A stretch of DNA of 64,000 bases from Escherichia coli (GCF_003018255.1 NZ_CP027440.1), one strand, 5' to 3'; positions 40,101-55,100 are shown, counted from the first letter of the stretch. Program-made: the numbers.

Positions 40101-43100
40101 GTACGGTCAGACCATATTTCAGGCAGTGAACGCCACCGGCATTTTCCGCCACATTGCCGCCAATTGAACAGGCGATTTGTGAGGAAGGATCCGGCGCGTA
40201 ATAGAGATTATGCGGCGCAACGGCCTGGGAGATCGCCAGATTACGCACGCCCGGCTGCACGCGCGCGCGGCGACCAACGGGGTTAATGTCGAGGATCTCT
40301 TTAAAGCGCGCCATCACCAACAACACACCTTTTTCCAGTGGCAGCGCGCCACCAGAAAGCCCGGTGCCTGCACCACGGGTCACCACCGGTACACGCAGGC
40401 GGTGGCAGACAGCCAGAATCGCCGTCACCTGTTCCATCTGCTTTGGCAAAACAACCAGTAATGGACGCGTGCGATACGCGCTCAACCCGTCACACTCGTA
40501 AGGAATGATCTCCTCATCGGTATGCAGGATCTCAAGTCCAGGGACATGCTCACGCAGTGCCATCAGTACCGATGTGCGGTCGACATCGGGTAAAGCGCCA
40601 TCAAGACGCTCTTCGTACAAGATGCTCATGAATAGGCTTCGCTTTGTTGTGTTGTGTGGCAGCTGATTTTTGCGCGCTGCTTCTGTGAACAGTTATTAAG
40701 CGGGCTTTTCGTTTTCGTCTATCTCTTTAGCTACCGGTCAGACCATTTTTTTTCCAGCTCTGTGACCTTGCCTTGGTTAACTTAATGTTAAATTGATGTA
40801 ACATAATCACTTGCGTGATGTGCGTGTTTTGCGAGTTAAGAACAGAAAAATTGGTCCTACCTGTGCACGAGGTCCGGGAATGAAAGATGAACGTCGCCCT
40901 ATTTGCGAAGTGGTTGCAGAGAGTATCGAACGGTTAATTATCGACGGCGTGTTGAAGGTCGGTCAGCCGCTTCCCTCGGAACGTCGACTGTGTGAAAAGC
41001 TCGGCTTCTCACGCTCCGCACTGCGTGAAGGGCTGACCGTGCTGCGCGGGCGCGGGATTATTGAAACGGCGCAGGGTCGCGATTCTCGTGTCGCACGGCT
41101 TAATCGGGTGCAGGACGCCAGCCCGCTGATCCATCTGTTCAGTACGCAGCCGCGAACGCTGTACGATCTGCTCGACGTTCGCGCATTACTGGAGGGCGAA
41201 TCGGCAAGGCTGGCGGCAACGCTGGGAACCCAGGCTGATTTTGTTGTGATAACCCGCTGTTATGAAAAAATGCTCGCCGCCAGTGAGAACAACAAAGAGA
41301 TTTCGCTGATCGAACATGCGCAGTTGGATCACGCTTTCCATCTCGCCATTTGTCAGGCTTCTCACAATCAGGTGCTGGTGTTTACGCTGCAATCATTGAC
41401 CGATCTGATGTTTAATTCAGTGTTTGCCAGCGTAAATAATCTCTACCATCGACCACAGCAAAAAAAGCAGATCGATCGCCAGCATGCGCGGATCTACAAC
41501 GCGGTGTTGCAGCGGCTGCCGCACGTCGCCCAGCGCGCAGCACGTGATCATGTGCGGACCGTGAAAAAGAATCTCCACGATATCGAGCTGGAAGGCCACC
41601 ATTTGATTCGCTCGGCGGTGCCGCTGGAGATGAAGCAGGGGTGACTGCCATCAAATCTGCTTTTCATACAATCGGTAACGCTTGTACGGCTCCGCCCCAA
41701 TGCGTTCCAGCATGTTATTCATGCCTGTATTGGTTTCGAGGATCCATGACATCTCCAGCGCATCGATCTTCCGACGGGCAAACGGATCGCGTAAGGCTTC
41801 AATCAATAACAGCGCAATTACCGGGCCGATGCGGCTGAACTGATACTCGTCCCGCACGCCCATCAGCGGCACTCGCGCAGTTCGCACACCGCTGACTTTC
41901 AAACGCCACAGCAATTTTGCCCAGCCGAAGGGAAAGAGCGATCCGTTCAGATCGGCAATCGCCTCGTTGATGTTCGGCAAGCCAACAATAAACGCGCAGG
42001 GTGCAGAATCAATCTCAGCGATGTAGATCATATCGTCCGGCACCAGATATTTAAGTTGATCGCCCATGGTCGCGAATTCATGTTCGGTAAACGGCACAAA
42101 TCCCCAGTTGTGCTGCCAGCCAGAATTGAAAATCTCACGCAGGATCTGCATCTCTTCGGCAAACCGCTGGCGATTGATGCAGCGAATGGTCACTTTTTTG
42201 CGCACCTGATCCATCAGTTTTTTTAGCGCCGGAGAGAACGTGAGATCGGTTCGCTGCATCCACCACGCCAGTAAATCAATGCCTTTGTGATAACCCAGTT
42301 GTTCAATATGCGCGGCATACCACGGTTTGCCGTGTGGCATCATCGCACAGGGCGGAGTGTCAAAACCTTCAATCAGTAATCCGCTTTCCTGATTGATATT
42401 CAGGCTGAAAGGCCCGCTGATCTTATTTGCACCTTGTGACTTTAACCACGCTTCCGCTGCGCCAAACAACGCGGCAAAAACCTGCGGATCATCAATGGCA
42501 TCAATCATTCCGTAATGACCGGTATCTTCACCGTAACGCTCACGGTGCAAGGTATCGATTTGCGCGGTAATACGCCCAACTATCTGCCCCGCTTTTTTTG
42601 CCACCCACGCCTGCCAGATGATATGGTCCGTCCCCGGATTCTTCGCAGACAAATGCTCGCTGCGTTCAATGAATAAAGGGGGTATCCAGTTTGGATCATC
42701 GGGATAAAGTGATGACGGAAAAGCGATAAATGCCTTAAGGTCATTTTTATTAATTACTTTTTCAATTTTAATCATCAGCAGATCGCATTCCATATCTCTG
42801 TGGATAACAAATAATTAACGGTGAAAAACAGGTTGCAACAGCAACGAACGGCATCTTAATAATCAACCCAATGAATACAAACAAAGAATAAATAGTATTT
42901 ATTAATGATTACGATAAGGTCAGAGACTACACAGAAGCGCCACAATGCCTCTTGTCGATTTAAGGCGACCGGACAAGGCTCCTTCTTAATATATTCATAA
43001 ATTAAATATCATTCACAATAAAAACAAAAAAACTCAAACATATTATTTAAATCAATGTTCATTTTCACACCGATGAAAATACTATCTCATTTATCTTTTA

Positions 43101-52100: not shown

Positions 52101-55100
52101 ACCCAGCAAAGCGCTCACGACATTACTGGAGCCTAACCAGGCGCTATTGCGAATAATGGTGCGAAACGCGCCATCTGCAAACCAATGTTTGATGTTAAAA
52201 CCCGCCAATTCAGCCTGACCTTATCGTTGATAGTAAAAAGTATCCCGCCAGCCTTAAGTTAAACTTCGGCGGTCAGAAACGATGGCAACCAGAGAAACCG
52301 CCTTCTGTGCCTGTTCCAGCACTTCGCTGTAGGGCGCTCTGGAATCAATCTCAAGAATTTTTGTGCCGTTATAGCCAATCGTCGACATGACGCCGATTTT
52401 GTCCTGCAGCTCGGCATAGTCATGGTCAGGCTTGCGGGAGATGGCAGTATCAATATCAATCCCCAAACGAATGATTAATTCAGGACGGTATTGCGCCATT
52501 TGTTGGTATAAACGCCGTTCGCGCTGCGCCAGAAACATGCTGATTTTCCCGGTCGCACGTTCGACGCCGATCCCCGGTCCGTCATAATAAAAGCCCGAAA
52601 TTTCAGCCTGCGGGAAGCGATCGCTGACCACCAGAACGCCACTTTGCGCCAGTCGCTGAACCTTGCGTAGATTCGCCATTCTTCGCAGCGAGAAGCAGTA
52701 CATAATCACCGCCGCCCATAGCGCTGGAGATTTGGTTTTCATGCTTTGGGTTTTCGAGGATTTGGCCGCCAGTCGCCGTTCGAGCCAGACGCCAACCAAC
52801 GGCAATCGTTTGATTTTGTCGCCGTCTTCGCCCGAGAGCAGCCCCAGATAGCGCCGCTCGGTTTGCCAGTGTTGTTGCAGCGATTTCACCAGGTCGGTGG
52901 TCAGTGTGGATTTACCGGTGCCATCACACCCGACCACCGCAATCAGCCCCGGAATGTAGTTGGGCTGCGGCGCGGTTGTACTATTAACAGTTTGTGTTTG
53001 TAGTGCGTCCATTCGTTAAATCATCCCCTATCCATTTTGGTGATCAGGAAAGCGCGGCGTGAATTGCGCGTAGTGACGCTTGCAGAATTTCATCGGCGGG
53101 TTGCCGACCATCCAGTTCAAGGATCTTTGCACCATTAAATGTCAGTTGCGGCGTAACGGCGATTTTTTCCTGTAACGCCGCCAGTTGGTGGTCAGGTTTA
53201 CGCGCAAACGCGGTTTGTTCATCAATGCCAAGACGAATCAACAATACGGGCAAATAAGACGCCATCCATTGGTACAGCTTCAGCTCGCGCTGCCTTAACA
53301 TTTTTATCCAACCGTTACCGCCCGTGGTTTTTGCCAATTGCGGGCCATCAAAGCGAAAACCCGGCACTTCAACCTGCGGGTAGCGGTCGGTGATGAGCAG
53401 ATAGCCTTGCTGGCTTTTACACAACATTTTGCGAAACTTGTACGCCCGCCAGCAGGAAAGCAGATAGATAACCAGCGCAGTAATATTGCCAGGTGGTGTG
53501 GAGGGCTTTTCGTGCACATGTGCCGCTTTACTTCGCAGATAACGCCCAAAAGGTGCGCCAATAACAGGGAGCTGTGAAATCCATTCGCCAATTCGCCCGG
53601 ACGATTGCCCGAGATAAATGTGTTCTGTTGGCATTGTTGCTGCCAGTTCATTTACCAGGCTTGCCGTGAGGGTCGATTTACCTGAACCATCACATCCTAC
53701 AATGGCAATAACACGCACTGGCGTGGAATTAATTATTGACATATTACGTTGATTCACGAAAAACCCGGCAGCAAATAATGTATTGAATATTACGTGGTCC
53801 GTGCTCAGAATATCCGTTCAACCTTATTGTGACAATGGTTAATTGTGACATTGACCTGAATTACGCTTTCATCAAAAACATATTAACCAAATAAATATTT
53901 TGGATGGATATTTAAATTTAAGGATATATTCATGCAGTCAATAATACCTCCATTAATTGCCGTTATTGGTAGCGATGGTTCAGGCAAGTCAACGGTGTGT
54001 GAACATCTTATTACCGTTGTCGAAAAATATGGTGCTGCCGAAAGAGTTCATTTAGGAAAACAGGCCGGAAATGTCGGTCGTGCAGTGACAAAATTACCGT
54101 TGATGGGAAAGTCTCTGCACAAGACTATTGAAAAAAATGAAGTGAAAACGGCAAAAAAATTGCCGGGTCCGGTTCCGGCCCTGGTGATCACCGCTTTCGT
54201 CGCCCGCCGACTGTTACGCTTTCGTCATATGCTCGCCTGTCGTCGTCGCGGGCTGATTGTCTTAACCGATCGTTATCCTCAGGACCAAATTCCTGGCGCT
54301 TACGATGGTACGGTGTTCCCACCTAACGTTGAAGGCGGCCGGTTTGTCTCATGGCTGGCAAGCCAGGAACGTAAAGCATTTCACTGGATGGCGAGCCATA
54401 AGCCTGATCTGGTCATCAAACTCAATGTTGACCTTGAAGTTGCCTGCGCGCGTAAACCCGACCATAAACGGGAATCGCTGGCGAGGAAGATTGCCATAAC
54501 GCCACAGTTAACCTTTGGCGGTGCACAACTGGTTGATATCGATGCTAATCAGCCACTGGAAAAGGTGCTGGTTGATGCAGAAAAAGCGATTACGGATTTT
54601 ATGACCGCGCGTGGTTATCACTAGTCAAAAATGGAAATGCCCGATCGCCAGGACCGGGCATTTTCAGGAAGGTTAAATCAACTGCAATGCTATCCAGTAC
54701 AACCCACCAGAAAGAAAAATCGCCGCCGGTAAAGTAAATACCCACGCCATCAGGATGCTGGTTACCGTTTTACGCTGTAACCCACCGCCGTCCACCACCA
54801 TCGTTCCTGCTACGGCAGATGAGAGTACGTGTGTTGTGGAGACGGGCATCCCAATATAACTGGCAAGGCCGATAGACACTGCCGCCGTCATTTGTGCCGC
54901 CATGCCTTGCGCATACGTCATGCCGCGCTTACCAATCTTCTCACCGATGGTCATCGCTACACGACGCCAGCCAATCATGGTGCCAATGCCGAGCGCCAGT
55001 GCTACCGCCATGATGATCCATACCGGTGCGTACTCAATGGTGCTTAACATATCGCTGCGCAGTTTTTTCAGCAGGTTCTGGTCTTCTTTACTGACGCCTG

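What the first reader, a model, noticed from the sequence alone, without database searches (positions are those of the whole stretch)
41651..54624. The yghO-to-yghT locus as a single accessory lipid synthesis, modification and export module
Between the conserved glcC and pitB genes lies an uninterrupted array: a YghO-type putative acyltransferase, the four-gene biosynthetic operon, an LptG/LptF-like pair, a signal-peptide protein, a 274-aa unknown, a MOP flippase and three paralogous P-loop kinase-like proteins. From memory, K-12 has only yghO, an IS5 copy, yghQ and yghRST at this position, so the eight genes from 43165 to 50859 appear absent there and yghQ is intact here. That would explain why the system has escaped K-12-centred functional study. 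Parts of the locus (for example yghT and the 42794-43164 intergenic region) look more AT-rich than the flanking core genes by eye.
Basis: partly seen in the sequence, partly recalled or inferred. Interest (0 to 1): 0.85.

Follow-up and report, generated by a model that had tools for sequence, protein, structure and literature searches.

The report
E. coli sphingolipid synthesis and export locus
This 13-gene block is the largely already-described E. coli locus for making a ceramide (sphingolipid) and probably exporting it to the outer membrane; K-12 lost most of it to an IS5-associated deletion, and the head-group and flipping genes remain uncharacterised.

Summary
Window 41651-54624 holds 13 tightly packed genes between glcC and pitB. 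K-12-type strains have 8,386 bp of it (42754-51139) replaced by one IS5.

- **What it is:** yghO plus aasR-cerR-acpR-spt are the bacterial ceramide pathway. The E. coli BL21(DE3) Spt, AcpR and AasR were assayed in 2022 (PMC9386255). A 2026 preprint already draws the E. coli UTI89 sphingolipid operons with their LptF/LptG homologues.
- **Not rare:** the K-12-deleted segment is present in 4063 of 5426 complete E. coli genomes. All 13 genes are under purifying selection (dN/dS 0.02-0.16). The same 13 genes lie together, in shuffled order, in Serratia, Hafnia, Rosenbergiella and other Enterobacterales.
- **Still unknown:** the lipid product in E. coli. My inference is an anionic phospho-ceramide.

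The parts
41651..42793 (-). yghO: bacterial ceramide synthase (bCerS/Aca) homologue, N-acyltransferase
   Evidence: 380-aa ORF. No Pfam or NCBIfam model matches. A few close homologues carry a precomputed GNAT hit, PF00583. Literature: 44% identity, E 1e-107, 98% coverage to Caulobacter CC_1154 (PMC9386255 Table S2). dN/dS 0.04-0.05.
42794..43164 (.). AT-rich divergent promoter region between yghO and the aasR operon
   Evidence: 371 nt, GC 0.31. Removed in K-12. No Rfam element.
43165..44889 (+). aasR: specialised fatty acyl-AMP ligase / acyl-ACP synthetase that loads AcpR
   Evidence: NCBIfam PRK09192 fatty acyl-AMP ligase, 867 bits against a cut-off of 600. The E. coli BL21 enzyme acylates AcpR(Ec) (PMC9386255).
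44886..45800 (+). cerR/epi: NAD(P)-dependent reductase of the 3-keto group (ceramide reductase homologue)
   Evidence: Only sub-threshold NCBIfam hits to short-chain dehydrogenase/epimerase-type reductases. Pfam Epimerase / 3Beta_HSD on orthologues. 34% identity, E 7e-38 to CC_1164. Its start overlaps the aasR stop by 4 nt.
45832..46080 (+). acpR: specialised acyl carrier protein
   Evidence: Weak ACP matches; PP-binding on orthologues. The BL21 protein carries 4'-phosphopantetheine (PMC9386255).
46080..47252 (+). spt: serine palmitoyltransferase
   Evidence: NCBIfam equivalog NF047599, 597.9 bits against a cut-off of 500. Its start overlaps the acpR stop by 1 nt. The BL21 enzyme forms 3-oxo-sphinganine and prefers acyl-AcpR (PMC9386255).
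47255..47289 (.). G+C-rich hairpin between the convergent spt and lptG-like genes, a likely bidirectional terminator
   Evidence: 16-bp stem. Folding energy -33.2 kcal/mol, z = -5.9 against shuffles.
47287..48366 (-). lptG2: second LptG-family permease
   Evidence: TIGR04408, 310 bits against a cut-off of 240. Absent from viable K-12, so it is not the essential lptG (plus established knowledge).
48363..49433 (-). lptF2: second LptF-family permease
   Evidence: TIGR04407, 320 bits against a cut-off of 230. Overlaps lptG2 by 4 nt. The Caulobacter homologues bind each other and LptB and are needed when anionic sphingolipid is made (abstract).
49463..50023 (-). YtfJ-family periplasmic protein (signal peptide); role unknown, possibly an accessory factor for export
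   Evidence: TIGR01626, 212 bits against a cut-off of 151. N-terminal hydrophobic segment. In the fetched loci it was found only in Enterobacterales, next to lptF2 wherever lptF2 was found; two loci (L040, L076) show it without a detected lptF2G2.
50035..50859 (-). 274-aa CHAD-fold protein, cytoplasmic, basic, translationally coupled to yghQ
50859..52208 (-). yghQ: Wzx-like MOP-superfamily flippase, intact here (449 aa)
   Evidence: Weak MOP flippase hit. Polysacc_synt / Polysacc_synt_3 on orthologues. Multiple TM segments. Truncated by IS5 in K-12.
52254..53012 (-). yghR: thymidylate-kinase-fold P-loop kinase paralogue
   Evidence: 44% identical to YghS. dTMP kinase model scores 30.9 bits against a cut-off of 83. 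Walker A and DR(F/Y) motifs conserved.
53044..53757 (-). yghS: thymidylate-kinase-fold P-loop kinase paralogue, first gene of the 7-gene operon
53758..53931 (.). AT-rich divergent promoter region between yghS and yghT
   Evidence: 174 nt, GC 0.32.
53932..54624 (+). yghT: third thymidylate-kinase-fold paralogue, monocistronic
   Evidence: 34-37% identical to YghR and YghS. A hairpin at 54635-54663 follows it.

Best explanation
The locus encodes a ceramide-based lipid pathway and probably its delivery to the outer membrane.

**Shown for the E. coli B proteins or close homologues**
- AasR loads a fatty acid onto the dedicated carrier AcpR.
- Spt condenses acyl-AcpR with serine to give 3-oxo-sphinganine.
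- YghO (bCerS) adds the N-acyl chain and CerR reduces the 3-keto group, giving dihydroceramide.

**Inferred from fold, conserved motifs and conserved gene neighbourhood**
- The three basic, soluble thymidylate-kinase-fold enzymes YghR/S/T phosphorylate the ceramide or its head group. This would give an anionic phospho-sphingolipid by a route unrelated to Caulobacter's CpgB, which is a DAG-kinase-fold enzyme.
- The cytoplasmic CHAD-fold protein is translationally coupled to YghQ. It binds the phosphate-rich head group or donor and works with the Wzx-like flippase YghQ to move the lipid to the periplasmic leaflet.

**Inferred by homology to Caulobacter LptF2/G2**
- LptF2/LptG2 borrow the housekeeping ATPase LptB, since the locus has no ATPase gene. 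They extract the lipid from the inner membrane and pass it to the Lpt bridge.
- The periplasmic YtfJ-family protein is a candidate accessory factor.

K-12 lost the pathway through an IS5-associated 8.4-kb deletion.
For: **Family membership:** Spt, LptF, LptG, FAAL and YtfJ models are all passed above their curated cut-offs.

**Literature**
- The E. coli BL21(DE3) AcpR, AasR and Spt were assayed. yghO and ECD_02852 are 44% and 34% identical to Caulobacter bCerS and CerR (PMC9386255).
- Caulobacter LptF2/G2 form a complex, bind LptB, and can be deleted only when the anionic sphingolipid is not made (bioRxiv 10.64898/2026.04.12.717747; abstract).

**Operon structure:** gaps of -4 to 45 nt. The yghQ stop overlaps the start of the CHAD-like gene.

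**Conservation as a unit**
- The same 13 genes occur in different order and with different neighbours in Serratia, Hafnia, Rosenbergiella and others.
- In Xanthomonadales the kinases, the spt operon, yghQ and the CHAD-like gene form one array.
- In Sphingopyxis and Sphingobium, yghS-yghR-yghT-yghQ-CHAD is one operon.

**Selection and prevalence:** dN/dS is 0.02-0.16 for all 13 genes. The segment is in 4063 of 5426 genomes.

**Folds:** CHAD and thymidylate kinase with Walker A, DR(Y/F) and lid residues invariant in all three paralogue classes.

**Independent kinase/CHAD-like pairing:** distant family members are fused to an APH/choline-kinase-type kinase domain.

**Localisation:** the kinases and the CHAD-like protein are basic (pI 9.2-9.8) and lack TM segments.
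Against: - No sphingolipid has been reported from unmodified E. coli in the papers I could search. The final product is unknown.
- The acceptor of YghR/S/T is untested. The family's closest solved relatives act on nucleotides.
- Sphingomonads carry the kinase-flippase-CHAD submodule, yet they are known (own knowledge) mainly for non-phosphorylated glycosphingolipids. The kinases may therefore serve a step other than a final phosphate head group.
- The CHAD assignment rests on fold and weak sequence signals. The E. coli protein itself does not reach Pfam's threshold.
- CHAD domains are known as polyphosphate binders, not lipid handlers.
- Interaction of E. coli LptF2/G2 with LptB is only an extrapolation from Caulobacter.
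Confidence: 0.7

Rival explanations
1. There are two independent units that merely lie side by side. One is a ceramide pathway with LptF2/G2. The other is a yghQRST/CHAD-like/YtfJ set that serves some polysaccharide, nucleotide or polyphosphate function with no link to the sphingolipid.
For: - In Sphingomonadales and Acetobacteraceae the kinase-flippase-CHAD genes are more than 10 kb from any spt, yghO or lptF2G2 gene.
- YghQ belongs to the family of polysaccharide-unit flippases.
- CHAD domains are known for polyphosphate binding.
Against: - The ceramide genes of sphingomonads are themselves scattered (PMC9386255), so distance there says little.
- In Xanthomonadales, and in a 38%-identity metagenomic relative, yghQ and the CHAD-like gene directly follow spt on the same strand.
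- In Enterobacterales, yghS-yghR-yghQ-CHAD-ytfJ-lptF2-lptG2 is one tightly packed operon.
- All named taxa that carry the CHAD-like family are Proteobacteria with spt in the locus or from classic sphingolipid-producing groups.
Confidence: 0.12
2. YghR/S/T are nucleotide or nucleotide-sugar kinases. They would supply an activated head-group donor, for example an NDP-linked precursor, rather than phosphorylating the lipid itself.
For: The nearest solved folds and the only significant sequence relatives are thymidylate and deoxynucleoside kinases. The Tmk-type DR(Y/F) motif is kept.
Against: - Scores are far below the dTMP kinase cut-off: 24.8-30.9 bits against 83.
- The region equivalent to the Tmk substrate site is a divergent, low-confidence insertion at residues about 50-90.
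- No nucleotidyltransferase or glycosyl/phosphotransferase that could use such a donor is encoded in the locus.
- Three conserved paralogue classes are hard to explain for one donor.
Confidence: 0.12
3. The locus is a silent evolutionary relic in E. coli. It would be transcriptionally shut off, for example by H-NS on the AT-rich promoters, and make no product of physiological importance.
For: - No paper that I found reports sphingolipids from native E. coli.
- In PMC9386255, extracts of BL21(DE3) carrying only the empty vector formed no 3-oxo-sphinganine.
- Both promoter regions have GC of about 0.31.
- Several lineages, including K-12 and O157:H7, have lost the locus.
Against: - All 13 genes show strong purifying selection (dN/dS 0.02-0.16).
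- The ORFs are intact in 75% of complete genomes.
- The whole set is conserved across Enterobacterales genera.
- Silence in laboratory media is compatible with a conditional function.
Confidence: 0.06

Closest known systems
Caulobacter crescentus sphingolipid locus CC_1152-CC_1168 (ceramide synthesis, CPG/CPG2 head group, LptF2/LptG2/LptC2, flippase CC_1166)
   Same: - The same five ceramide genes (aasR, cerR, acpR, spt, bCerS).
- A second LptF/LptG pair with no ATPase gene of its own.
- A Polysacc_synt-type flippase candidate.
- The genes are clustered in one locus.
   Different: - E. coli has none of the Cpg head-group enzymes: no DAG-kinase-type ceramide kinase CpgB, no Tam41-like CC_1161, no CC_1159 transferase, and no CpgD/CC_1153 nucleotidyltransferases (no such family hits).
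- E. coli also has no LptC2.
- Instead it has three thymidylate-kinase-fold proteins, a CHAD-fold protein and a YtfJ-family periplasmic protein. None of these appear in the published description of the 17 Caulobacter genes.
E. coli BL21(DE3) ECD_02850-ECD_02854 (Padilla-Gomez et al. 2022, PMC9386255)
   Same: It is the same locus. E. coli B REL606 matches the whole query at 97.1% identity. AcpR, AasR and Spt were characterised biochemically there.
   Different: That work covers only the five ceramide genes. The eight downstream genes were not addressed.
CHAD domain proteins / phosins (PDB 6qv5, 3e0s, PptA 6rn5)
   Same: - The two repeated basic motifs align in order.
   Different: - The protein is below Pfam's CHAD threshold.
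- It forms its own small family: 207 representatives at 50% identity.
- It has invariant Asp and His residues.
- It is encoded with a lipid flippase and kinases rather than with CYTH or polyphosphate enzymes.
Thymidylate kinase (Tmk) / deoxynucleoside kinase P-loop family
   Same: Same fold, Walker A GxDGxGKST, a DR(Y/F) motif, and a lid with basic residues.
   Different: - Scores are far below the dTMP kinase equivalog cut-off.
- There is an extra helical insertion where Tmk binds dTMP.
- There are three conserved paralogue classes, always next to a flippase and a CHAD-like gene.
- The RefSeq product name 'dTMP kinase' is not justified.

Membership tests
Bacterial ceramide (sphingolipid) synthesis pathway | Serine palmitoyltransferase of the alpha-oxoamine synthase family | tested here: met
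   NF047599 equivalog, 597.9 bits against a cut-off of 500. BioF, Kbl and ALAS models fall below their cut-offs.
Bacterial ceramide (sphingolipid) synthesis pathway | Dedicated ACP gene directly upstream of spt, plus a dedicated acyl-ACP synthetase | tested here: met
   The acpR stop overlaps the spt start. The aasR FAAL subfamily model scores 867 against a cut-off of 600.
Bacterial ceramide (sphingolipid) synthesis pathway | bCerS-type N-acyltransferase | tested here: inconclusive
   No Pfam or NCBIfam model exists or matches, and I could not obtain the Caulobacter sequence. The literature gives 44% identity, E 1e-107 to CC_1154.
Bacterial ceramide (sphingolipid) synthesis pathway | CerR-type NAD(P)-dependent reductase | tested here: met
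   Met at superfamily level only: Pfam Epimerase / 3Beta_HSD on orthologues; the NCBIfam hits are all sub-threshold. Literature: 34% identity to CC_1164.
Bacterial ceramide (sphingolipid) synthesis pathway | Ceramide actually produced by the native organism | not testable with these tools
   This needs lipidomics. No report was found.
LptF/LptG permeases | Score above the curated equivalog cut-offs | tested here: met
   LptG model 310 against 240; LptF model 320 against 230.
LptF/LptG permeases | Being the essential LPS exporter of the cell | tested here: not met
   Both genes lie inside the segment deleted in viable K-12 strains. They are therefore paralogues of the housekeeping lptFG.
CHAD domain (PF05235) | Two-four-helix-bundle CHAD fold | tested here: met
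   [not shown]
CHAD domain (PF05235) | Significant match to the Pfam profile | tested here: not met
   The E. coli protein has no hit. Of 46 family members, 9 match at E<=0.1 and 1 at 2.5e-5.
CHAD domain (PF05235) | Binds inorganic polyphosphate | not testable with these tools
   This needs a binding assay.
dTMP kinase (TIGR00041) | Score above the equivalog cut-off of 83.25 bits | tested here: not met
   YghR 30.9, YghS 24.8 and YghT 25.5 bits.
dTMP kinase (TIGR00041) | Tmk fold with Walker A and a DR(Y/F) motif | tested here: met
   [not shown]
Caulobacter CPG head-group pathway | DAG-kinase-type ceramide kinase, Tam41-like enzyme, and CpgD-type nucleotidyltransferases | tested here: not met
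   None of the 13 proteins matches such families.
Horizontally acquired genomic island | Deviant composition, mobility genes at the borders, patchy distribution | tested here: not met
   Locus GC is 0.50 against 0.52 for the window. Its immediate neighbours are glcC and pitB, with no mobility gene between them. It is present in 75% of genomes and in sister Escherichia species.
Anti-phage defence systems (PADLOC) | Match to a defence protein model | tested here: not met
   Ten proteins were scanned. The only hit is a 19-bit P-loop match.

The most novel reading that the evidence does not exclude
The kinase-flippase-CHAD submodule makes and handles a lipid class not yet described. The three conserved thymidylate-kinase-fold paralogues would add successive phosphates to ceramide, giving ceramide mono-, di- and perhaps tri-phosphate, or a pyrophosphate-linked head group. 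The CHAD-fold protein, whose relatives bind polyphosphate, would hold this oligophosphate head group and present it to the Wzx-like flippase YghQ, a family whose known substrates are lipid-pyrophosphate-linked. This would identify the missing sphingolipid flippase. It would also reveal an anionic outer-membrane lipid encoded by three quarters of E. coli strains.
Probability: 0.12. Interest if true: 0.8.

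Novelty: new variant of a known kind. Interest (0 to 1): 0.45.

Why it matters
Most natural E. coli, and many Serratia, Hafnia, Pantoea and Erwinia, carry a selected and complete-looking sphingolipid pathway that the K-12 reference strain lacks. Textbook descriptions of the E. coli envelope may therefore omit a conditional outer-membrane lipid.

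The ceramide core and the Lpt-like exporter are already in the literature. [quoted passage not shown]

The conserved kinase / YghQ / CHAD-like submodule gives concrete candidate genes for both questions, in a genetically tractable organism.

The RefSeq names 'dTMP kinase' (YghS, YghT) and 'LPS export ABC transporter permease' (the LptF/G paralogues) are likely to mislead.

Tried and rejected
- **YghO family scans:** Pfam and NCBIfam found nothing. A PDB sequence search gave only noise.
- **Single-sequence searches:** PDB searches with the 274-aa protein, YghS and the YtfJ-like protein were uninformative. Profiles and fold searches were needed.
- **Genome-collection scan:** the first attempt, with the 46-sequence alignment, failed for lack of a conserved stretch. 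A 15-sequence alignment worked.
- **Fused relatives:** NCBIfam on them gave nothing. Pfam then showed APH/choline-kinase domains.
- **Distant family members:** two sat on contigs too short to give context.
- **Caulobacter CC_1167:** I considered it as a possible CHAD-like homologue and rejected that. It is described as a CDP-glycerol glycerophosphotransferase-like protein.
- **Defence-system reading:** rejected.
- **Riboswitch or sRNA in the leaders:** none found.
- **Recent horizontal acquisition:** rejected on composition and prevalence.
- **Literature searches:** I found no report of native E. coli sphingolipids and no link between CHAD and sphingolipids. K-12 papers that mention yghQ or yghRST gave no mechanistic information.
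- **Not done:** I could not fetch Caulobacter sequences or the housekeeping E. coli lptFG for direct alignment.

Full report
**1. Observation**

They coincide with the RefSeq annotation of a 100% identical genome, E. coli DETEC-S792.

The layout is as follows:
- yghO lies on the minus strand.
- A 371-nt intergenic region with GC 0.31 separates it from the plus-strand operon aasR-cerR-acpR-spt. Gaps in that operon are -4, 31 and -1 nt.
- A strong hairpin at 47255-47289 follows spt (-33 kcal/mol, z -5.9).
- A convergent seven-gene minus-strand operon comes next: yghS-yghR-yghQ-274aa-ytfJ-like-lptF-like-lptG-like. Its gaps are 31, 45, -1, 11, 29 and -4 nt.
- yghT is divergent from yghS across a 174-nt region with GC 0.32.

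A K-12-type genome aligns to window 39000-42753 and 51140-57500, with 1,194 bp of IS5 in between. K-12 therefore lacks 8,386 bp. The loss covers the first 40 nt of yghO and its promoter, the eight genes from aasR to the 274-aa ORF, and the last 281 nt of yghQ.

The exact IS5/yghQ junction occurs in 347 of 5426 complete genomes. The deleted segment is present at >=80% coverage in 4063 of 5426. K-12 is the exception.

Composition is ordinary: locus 0.50, window 0.52. Only the two promoter regions are AT-rich.

**2. What the genes are**

| Gene | Result |
|---|---|
| spt | Passes NCBIfam's serine palmitoyltransferase equivalog, 598 bits against 500 |
| aasR | Passes a fatty acyl-AMP ligase subfamily model |
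| lptF-like, lptG-like | Pass the LptF and LptG equivalog cut-offs |
| 186-aa protein | YtfJ family, with a signal peptide |
| yghO | Matches no Pfam or NCBIfam model |
| yghR/S/T | Mutual paralogues, 34-44% identity; only 25-31 bits on the dTMP kinase model against a cut-off of 83 |

**3. Literature**

This is the E. coli sphingolipid locus.
- Padilla-Gomez et al. 2022 (PMC9386255) worked with BL21(DE3) ECD_02850-02854, which are yghO, aasR, epi/cerR, acpR and spt.
- They showed that AcpR(Ec) carries phosphopantetheine and that AasR(Ec) acylates it. Spt(Ec) makes 3-oxo-sphinganine and prefers acyl-AcpR.
- Their Table S2 gives 44% identity (E 1e-107) between yghO and Caulobacter bCerS. It gives 34% identity between ECD_02852 and CerR.
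- In Caulobacter the neighbouring LptF2/LptG2 form a complex and bind LptB. They can be deleted only if the anionic sphingolipid is not made. The same preprint draws the E. coli UTI89 sphingolipid operons alongside (bioRxiv 10.64898/2026.04.12.717747).
- The Caulobacter head-group enzymes are of quite different families: the DAG-kinase-type ceramide kinase CpgB, a Tam41-like protein, and nucleotidyltransferases. None has a counterpart among the 13 E. coli proteins.
- I found no report of a sphingolipid from unmodified E. coli.

**4. The uncharacterised half**

*The 274-aa protein*
- It belongs to a small family: 207 representatives at 50% identity. Invariant residues are R88, D123, H193, R196 and D238.
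- A family profile hits only one PDB sequence, the CHAD domain 6qv5. Both repeated basic motifs align in order.
- Pfam CHAD matches 9 of 46 members weakly.
- It is therefore a divergent CHAD-fold protein. It is soluble and basic, with pI 9.2.

*YghS*
- The family profile finds Tmk structures at E 1.7e-8.
- Across 37 sequences from all three paralogue classes, the Walker A residues, R125 of the DR(Y/F) motif and several lid residues are invariant, and D124 is nearly so. All three look like active phosphotransferases.
- None is a dTMP kinase by NCBI's own cut-off.

**5. Comparative genomics**

A scan of one genome per species with the CHAD-like family returned 79 loci. I mapped all 13 E. coli proteins onto them.

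| Taxon | Arrangement |
|---|---|
| Enterobacterales (Serratia, Hafnia, Pantoea, Erwinia, Sodalis, Rosenbergiella, Pseudocitrobacter, some Citrobacter and others) | All 13 genes are together, with different order and orientation of the blocks and different flanking genes |
| Xanthomonadales (Luteibacter, Rhodanobacter, Dyella) | yghT, yghS, yghR, the spt operon, yghQ and the CHAD-like gene form one array. No lptF2G2 or ytfJ within 10 kb |
| Sphingopyxis, Sphingobium | yghS-yghR-yghT-yghQ-CHAD is one operon |
| Novosphingobium, Sphingomonas, Acetobacteraceae | Mostly one or two kinases with yghQ and the CHAD-like gene; in a few loci only the CHAD-like gene was detected within 10 kb |

Kinase(s) + MOP flippase + CHAD-like protein is thus a conserved submodule. 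It occurs in lineages known or predicted to make sphingolipids. The R, S and T classes are old.

Two distant CHAD-like proteins are fused to an APH/choline-kinase-type kinase domain. This is an independent hint that the domain works with a kinase.

All 13 E. coli genes are under strong purifying selection against E. whittamii and a cryptic clade, with dN/dS 0.02-0.16.

**6. Mechanism**

I commit to the pathway given under best explanation.
- Ceramide synthesis is shown or strongly supported.
- Lpt-like extraction with a borrowed LptB is inferred by homology.
- Phosphorylation by YghR/S/T, and head-group handling and flipping by the CHAD-like protein with YghQ, are inferred from fold, motifs, translational coupling and neighbourhood conservation.

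The weakest point is the kinase substrate. Sphingomonads that carry the submodule are best known for uncharged or uronic-acid glycosphingolipids. The kinases may therefore act on an intermediate or a donor rather than decorate the final lipid.

**7. Verdict**

It is right about a single lipid synthesis/export module missing from K-12. It misses the sphingolipid identity. It is wrong to call the locus rare or unstudied.
- The ceramide core and the LptF2/G2 link are already known.
- The head-group and flipping submodule differs from the only characterised system (Caulobacter Cpg). Together with the CHAD-fold assignment, it appears unreported in the literature I could search.

Noticed in passing
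L051 (Rhodanobacter sp. L36) 10804-20758, minus strand: In Xanthomonadales the bCerS homologue (yghO) is followed on the same strand, with overlapping or abutting ORFs, by MdtA-, MdtB- and MdtC-like RND pump genes and a NodT-type outer-membrane factor, apparently one operon. No lptF2G2 lies within 10 kb. This may be an alternative sphingolipid export route.
   Followed up: partly
L051:3525-4283 (+): An OlsC/LpxO-like lipid acyl 2-hydroxylase (224 bits, below the cut-off of 450) sits between the kinase genes and aasR in the Rhodanobacter cluster. This suggests 2-hydroxylated acyl chains in that lineage's sphingolipid.
   Followed up: no
P0371 / L089:8001-10931, and P0388: Proteins of about 980 aa carry an N-terminal APH/choline-kinase-type kinase domain and a C-terminal domain of the 274-aa (CHAD-like) family. 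Their genomic context has no obvious lipid genes.
   Followed up: partly
P0377 / L006:1598-5065: A 1155-aa protein has a C-terminal CHAD-like domain (27% identity, E 6e-11). It is followed by a DUF2247 gene, which from memory is a predicted immunity-protein family, so the arrangement is reminiscent of polymorphic toxin-immunity pairs.
   Followed up: no
L046 10001-10801 and 10954-11757; L053 9152-9955 and 10001-10816; L086: The CHAD-like gene is tandemly duplicated in Luteibacter. There are two copies in a Gammaproteobacteria MAG. P0244 (564 aa) looks like a fused duplicate.
   Followed up: no
window 15230-31721: A complete type II secretion system beta (gspC-M/yghD, gspS2, pppA) with the SslE lipoprotein metalloprotease lies just upstream of the glc operon. 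From memory, K-12 retains only remnants of it, so the neighbourhood as a whole is eroded in K-12.
   Followed up: no
window 1-14950: A mobile-element remnant: IS66 and IS21 copies, antirestriction and JAB-domain genes, the CbtA/CbeA toxin-antitoxin pair, and an IrmA-family gene.
   Followed up: no
RefSeq annotation of window 47287-49433 and 53044-54624: The product names look like overcalls. YghS and YghT are named 'dTMP kinase' at 25 bits against a cut-off of 83. The two paralogues are named 'LPS export ABC transporter permease LptF/LptG' although they are dispensable in K-12.
   Followed up: yes
hits H25 (NZ_CP083273.1, 'BL21-RIPL') and H15 (REL606): A record labelled BL21-RIPL shows the K-12-type IS5 deletion, whereas E. 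coli B REL606 has the intact locus. This may be a strain mislabel or a K-12-derived segment.
   Followed up: no
hits H24 (BS-01) and H53 (HS-02): Two genomes of about 4.5 Mb labelled E. coli carry a much more divergent version of the locus: 82% identity for H53 and 92% for H24, with the H24 match fragmented into nine pieces. They may be misassigned species.
   Followed up: no
summary lines: One of about 5,200 matching places is on a plasmid rather than a chromosome.
   Followed up: no
window 56364-56493 (+): A sub-threshold Rfam match to the Listeria sRNA rli38 (35 bits against 49, E 0.09) lies in the AT-rich pitB-gss intergenic region. It is most likely chance.
   Followed up: no
P0032: A database protein named GspM (280 aa, PF04612) is 97% identical to 81% of the 274-aa protein. 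It is probably a chimeric or misassembled gene model.
   Followed up: no
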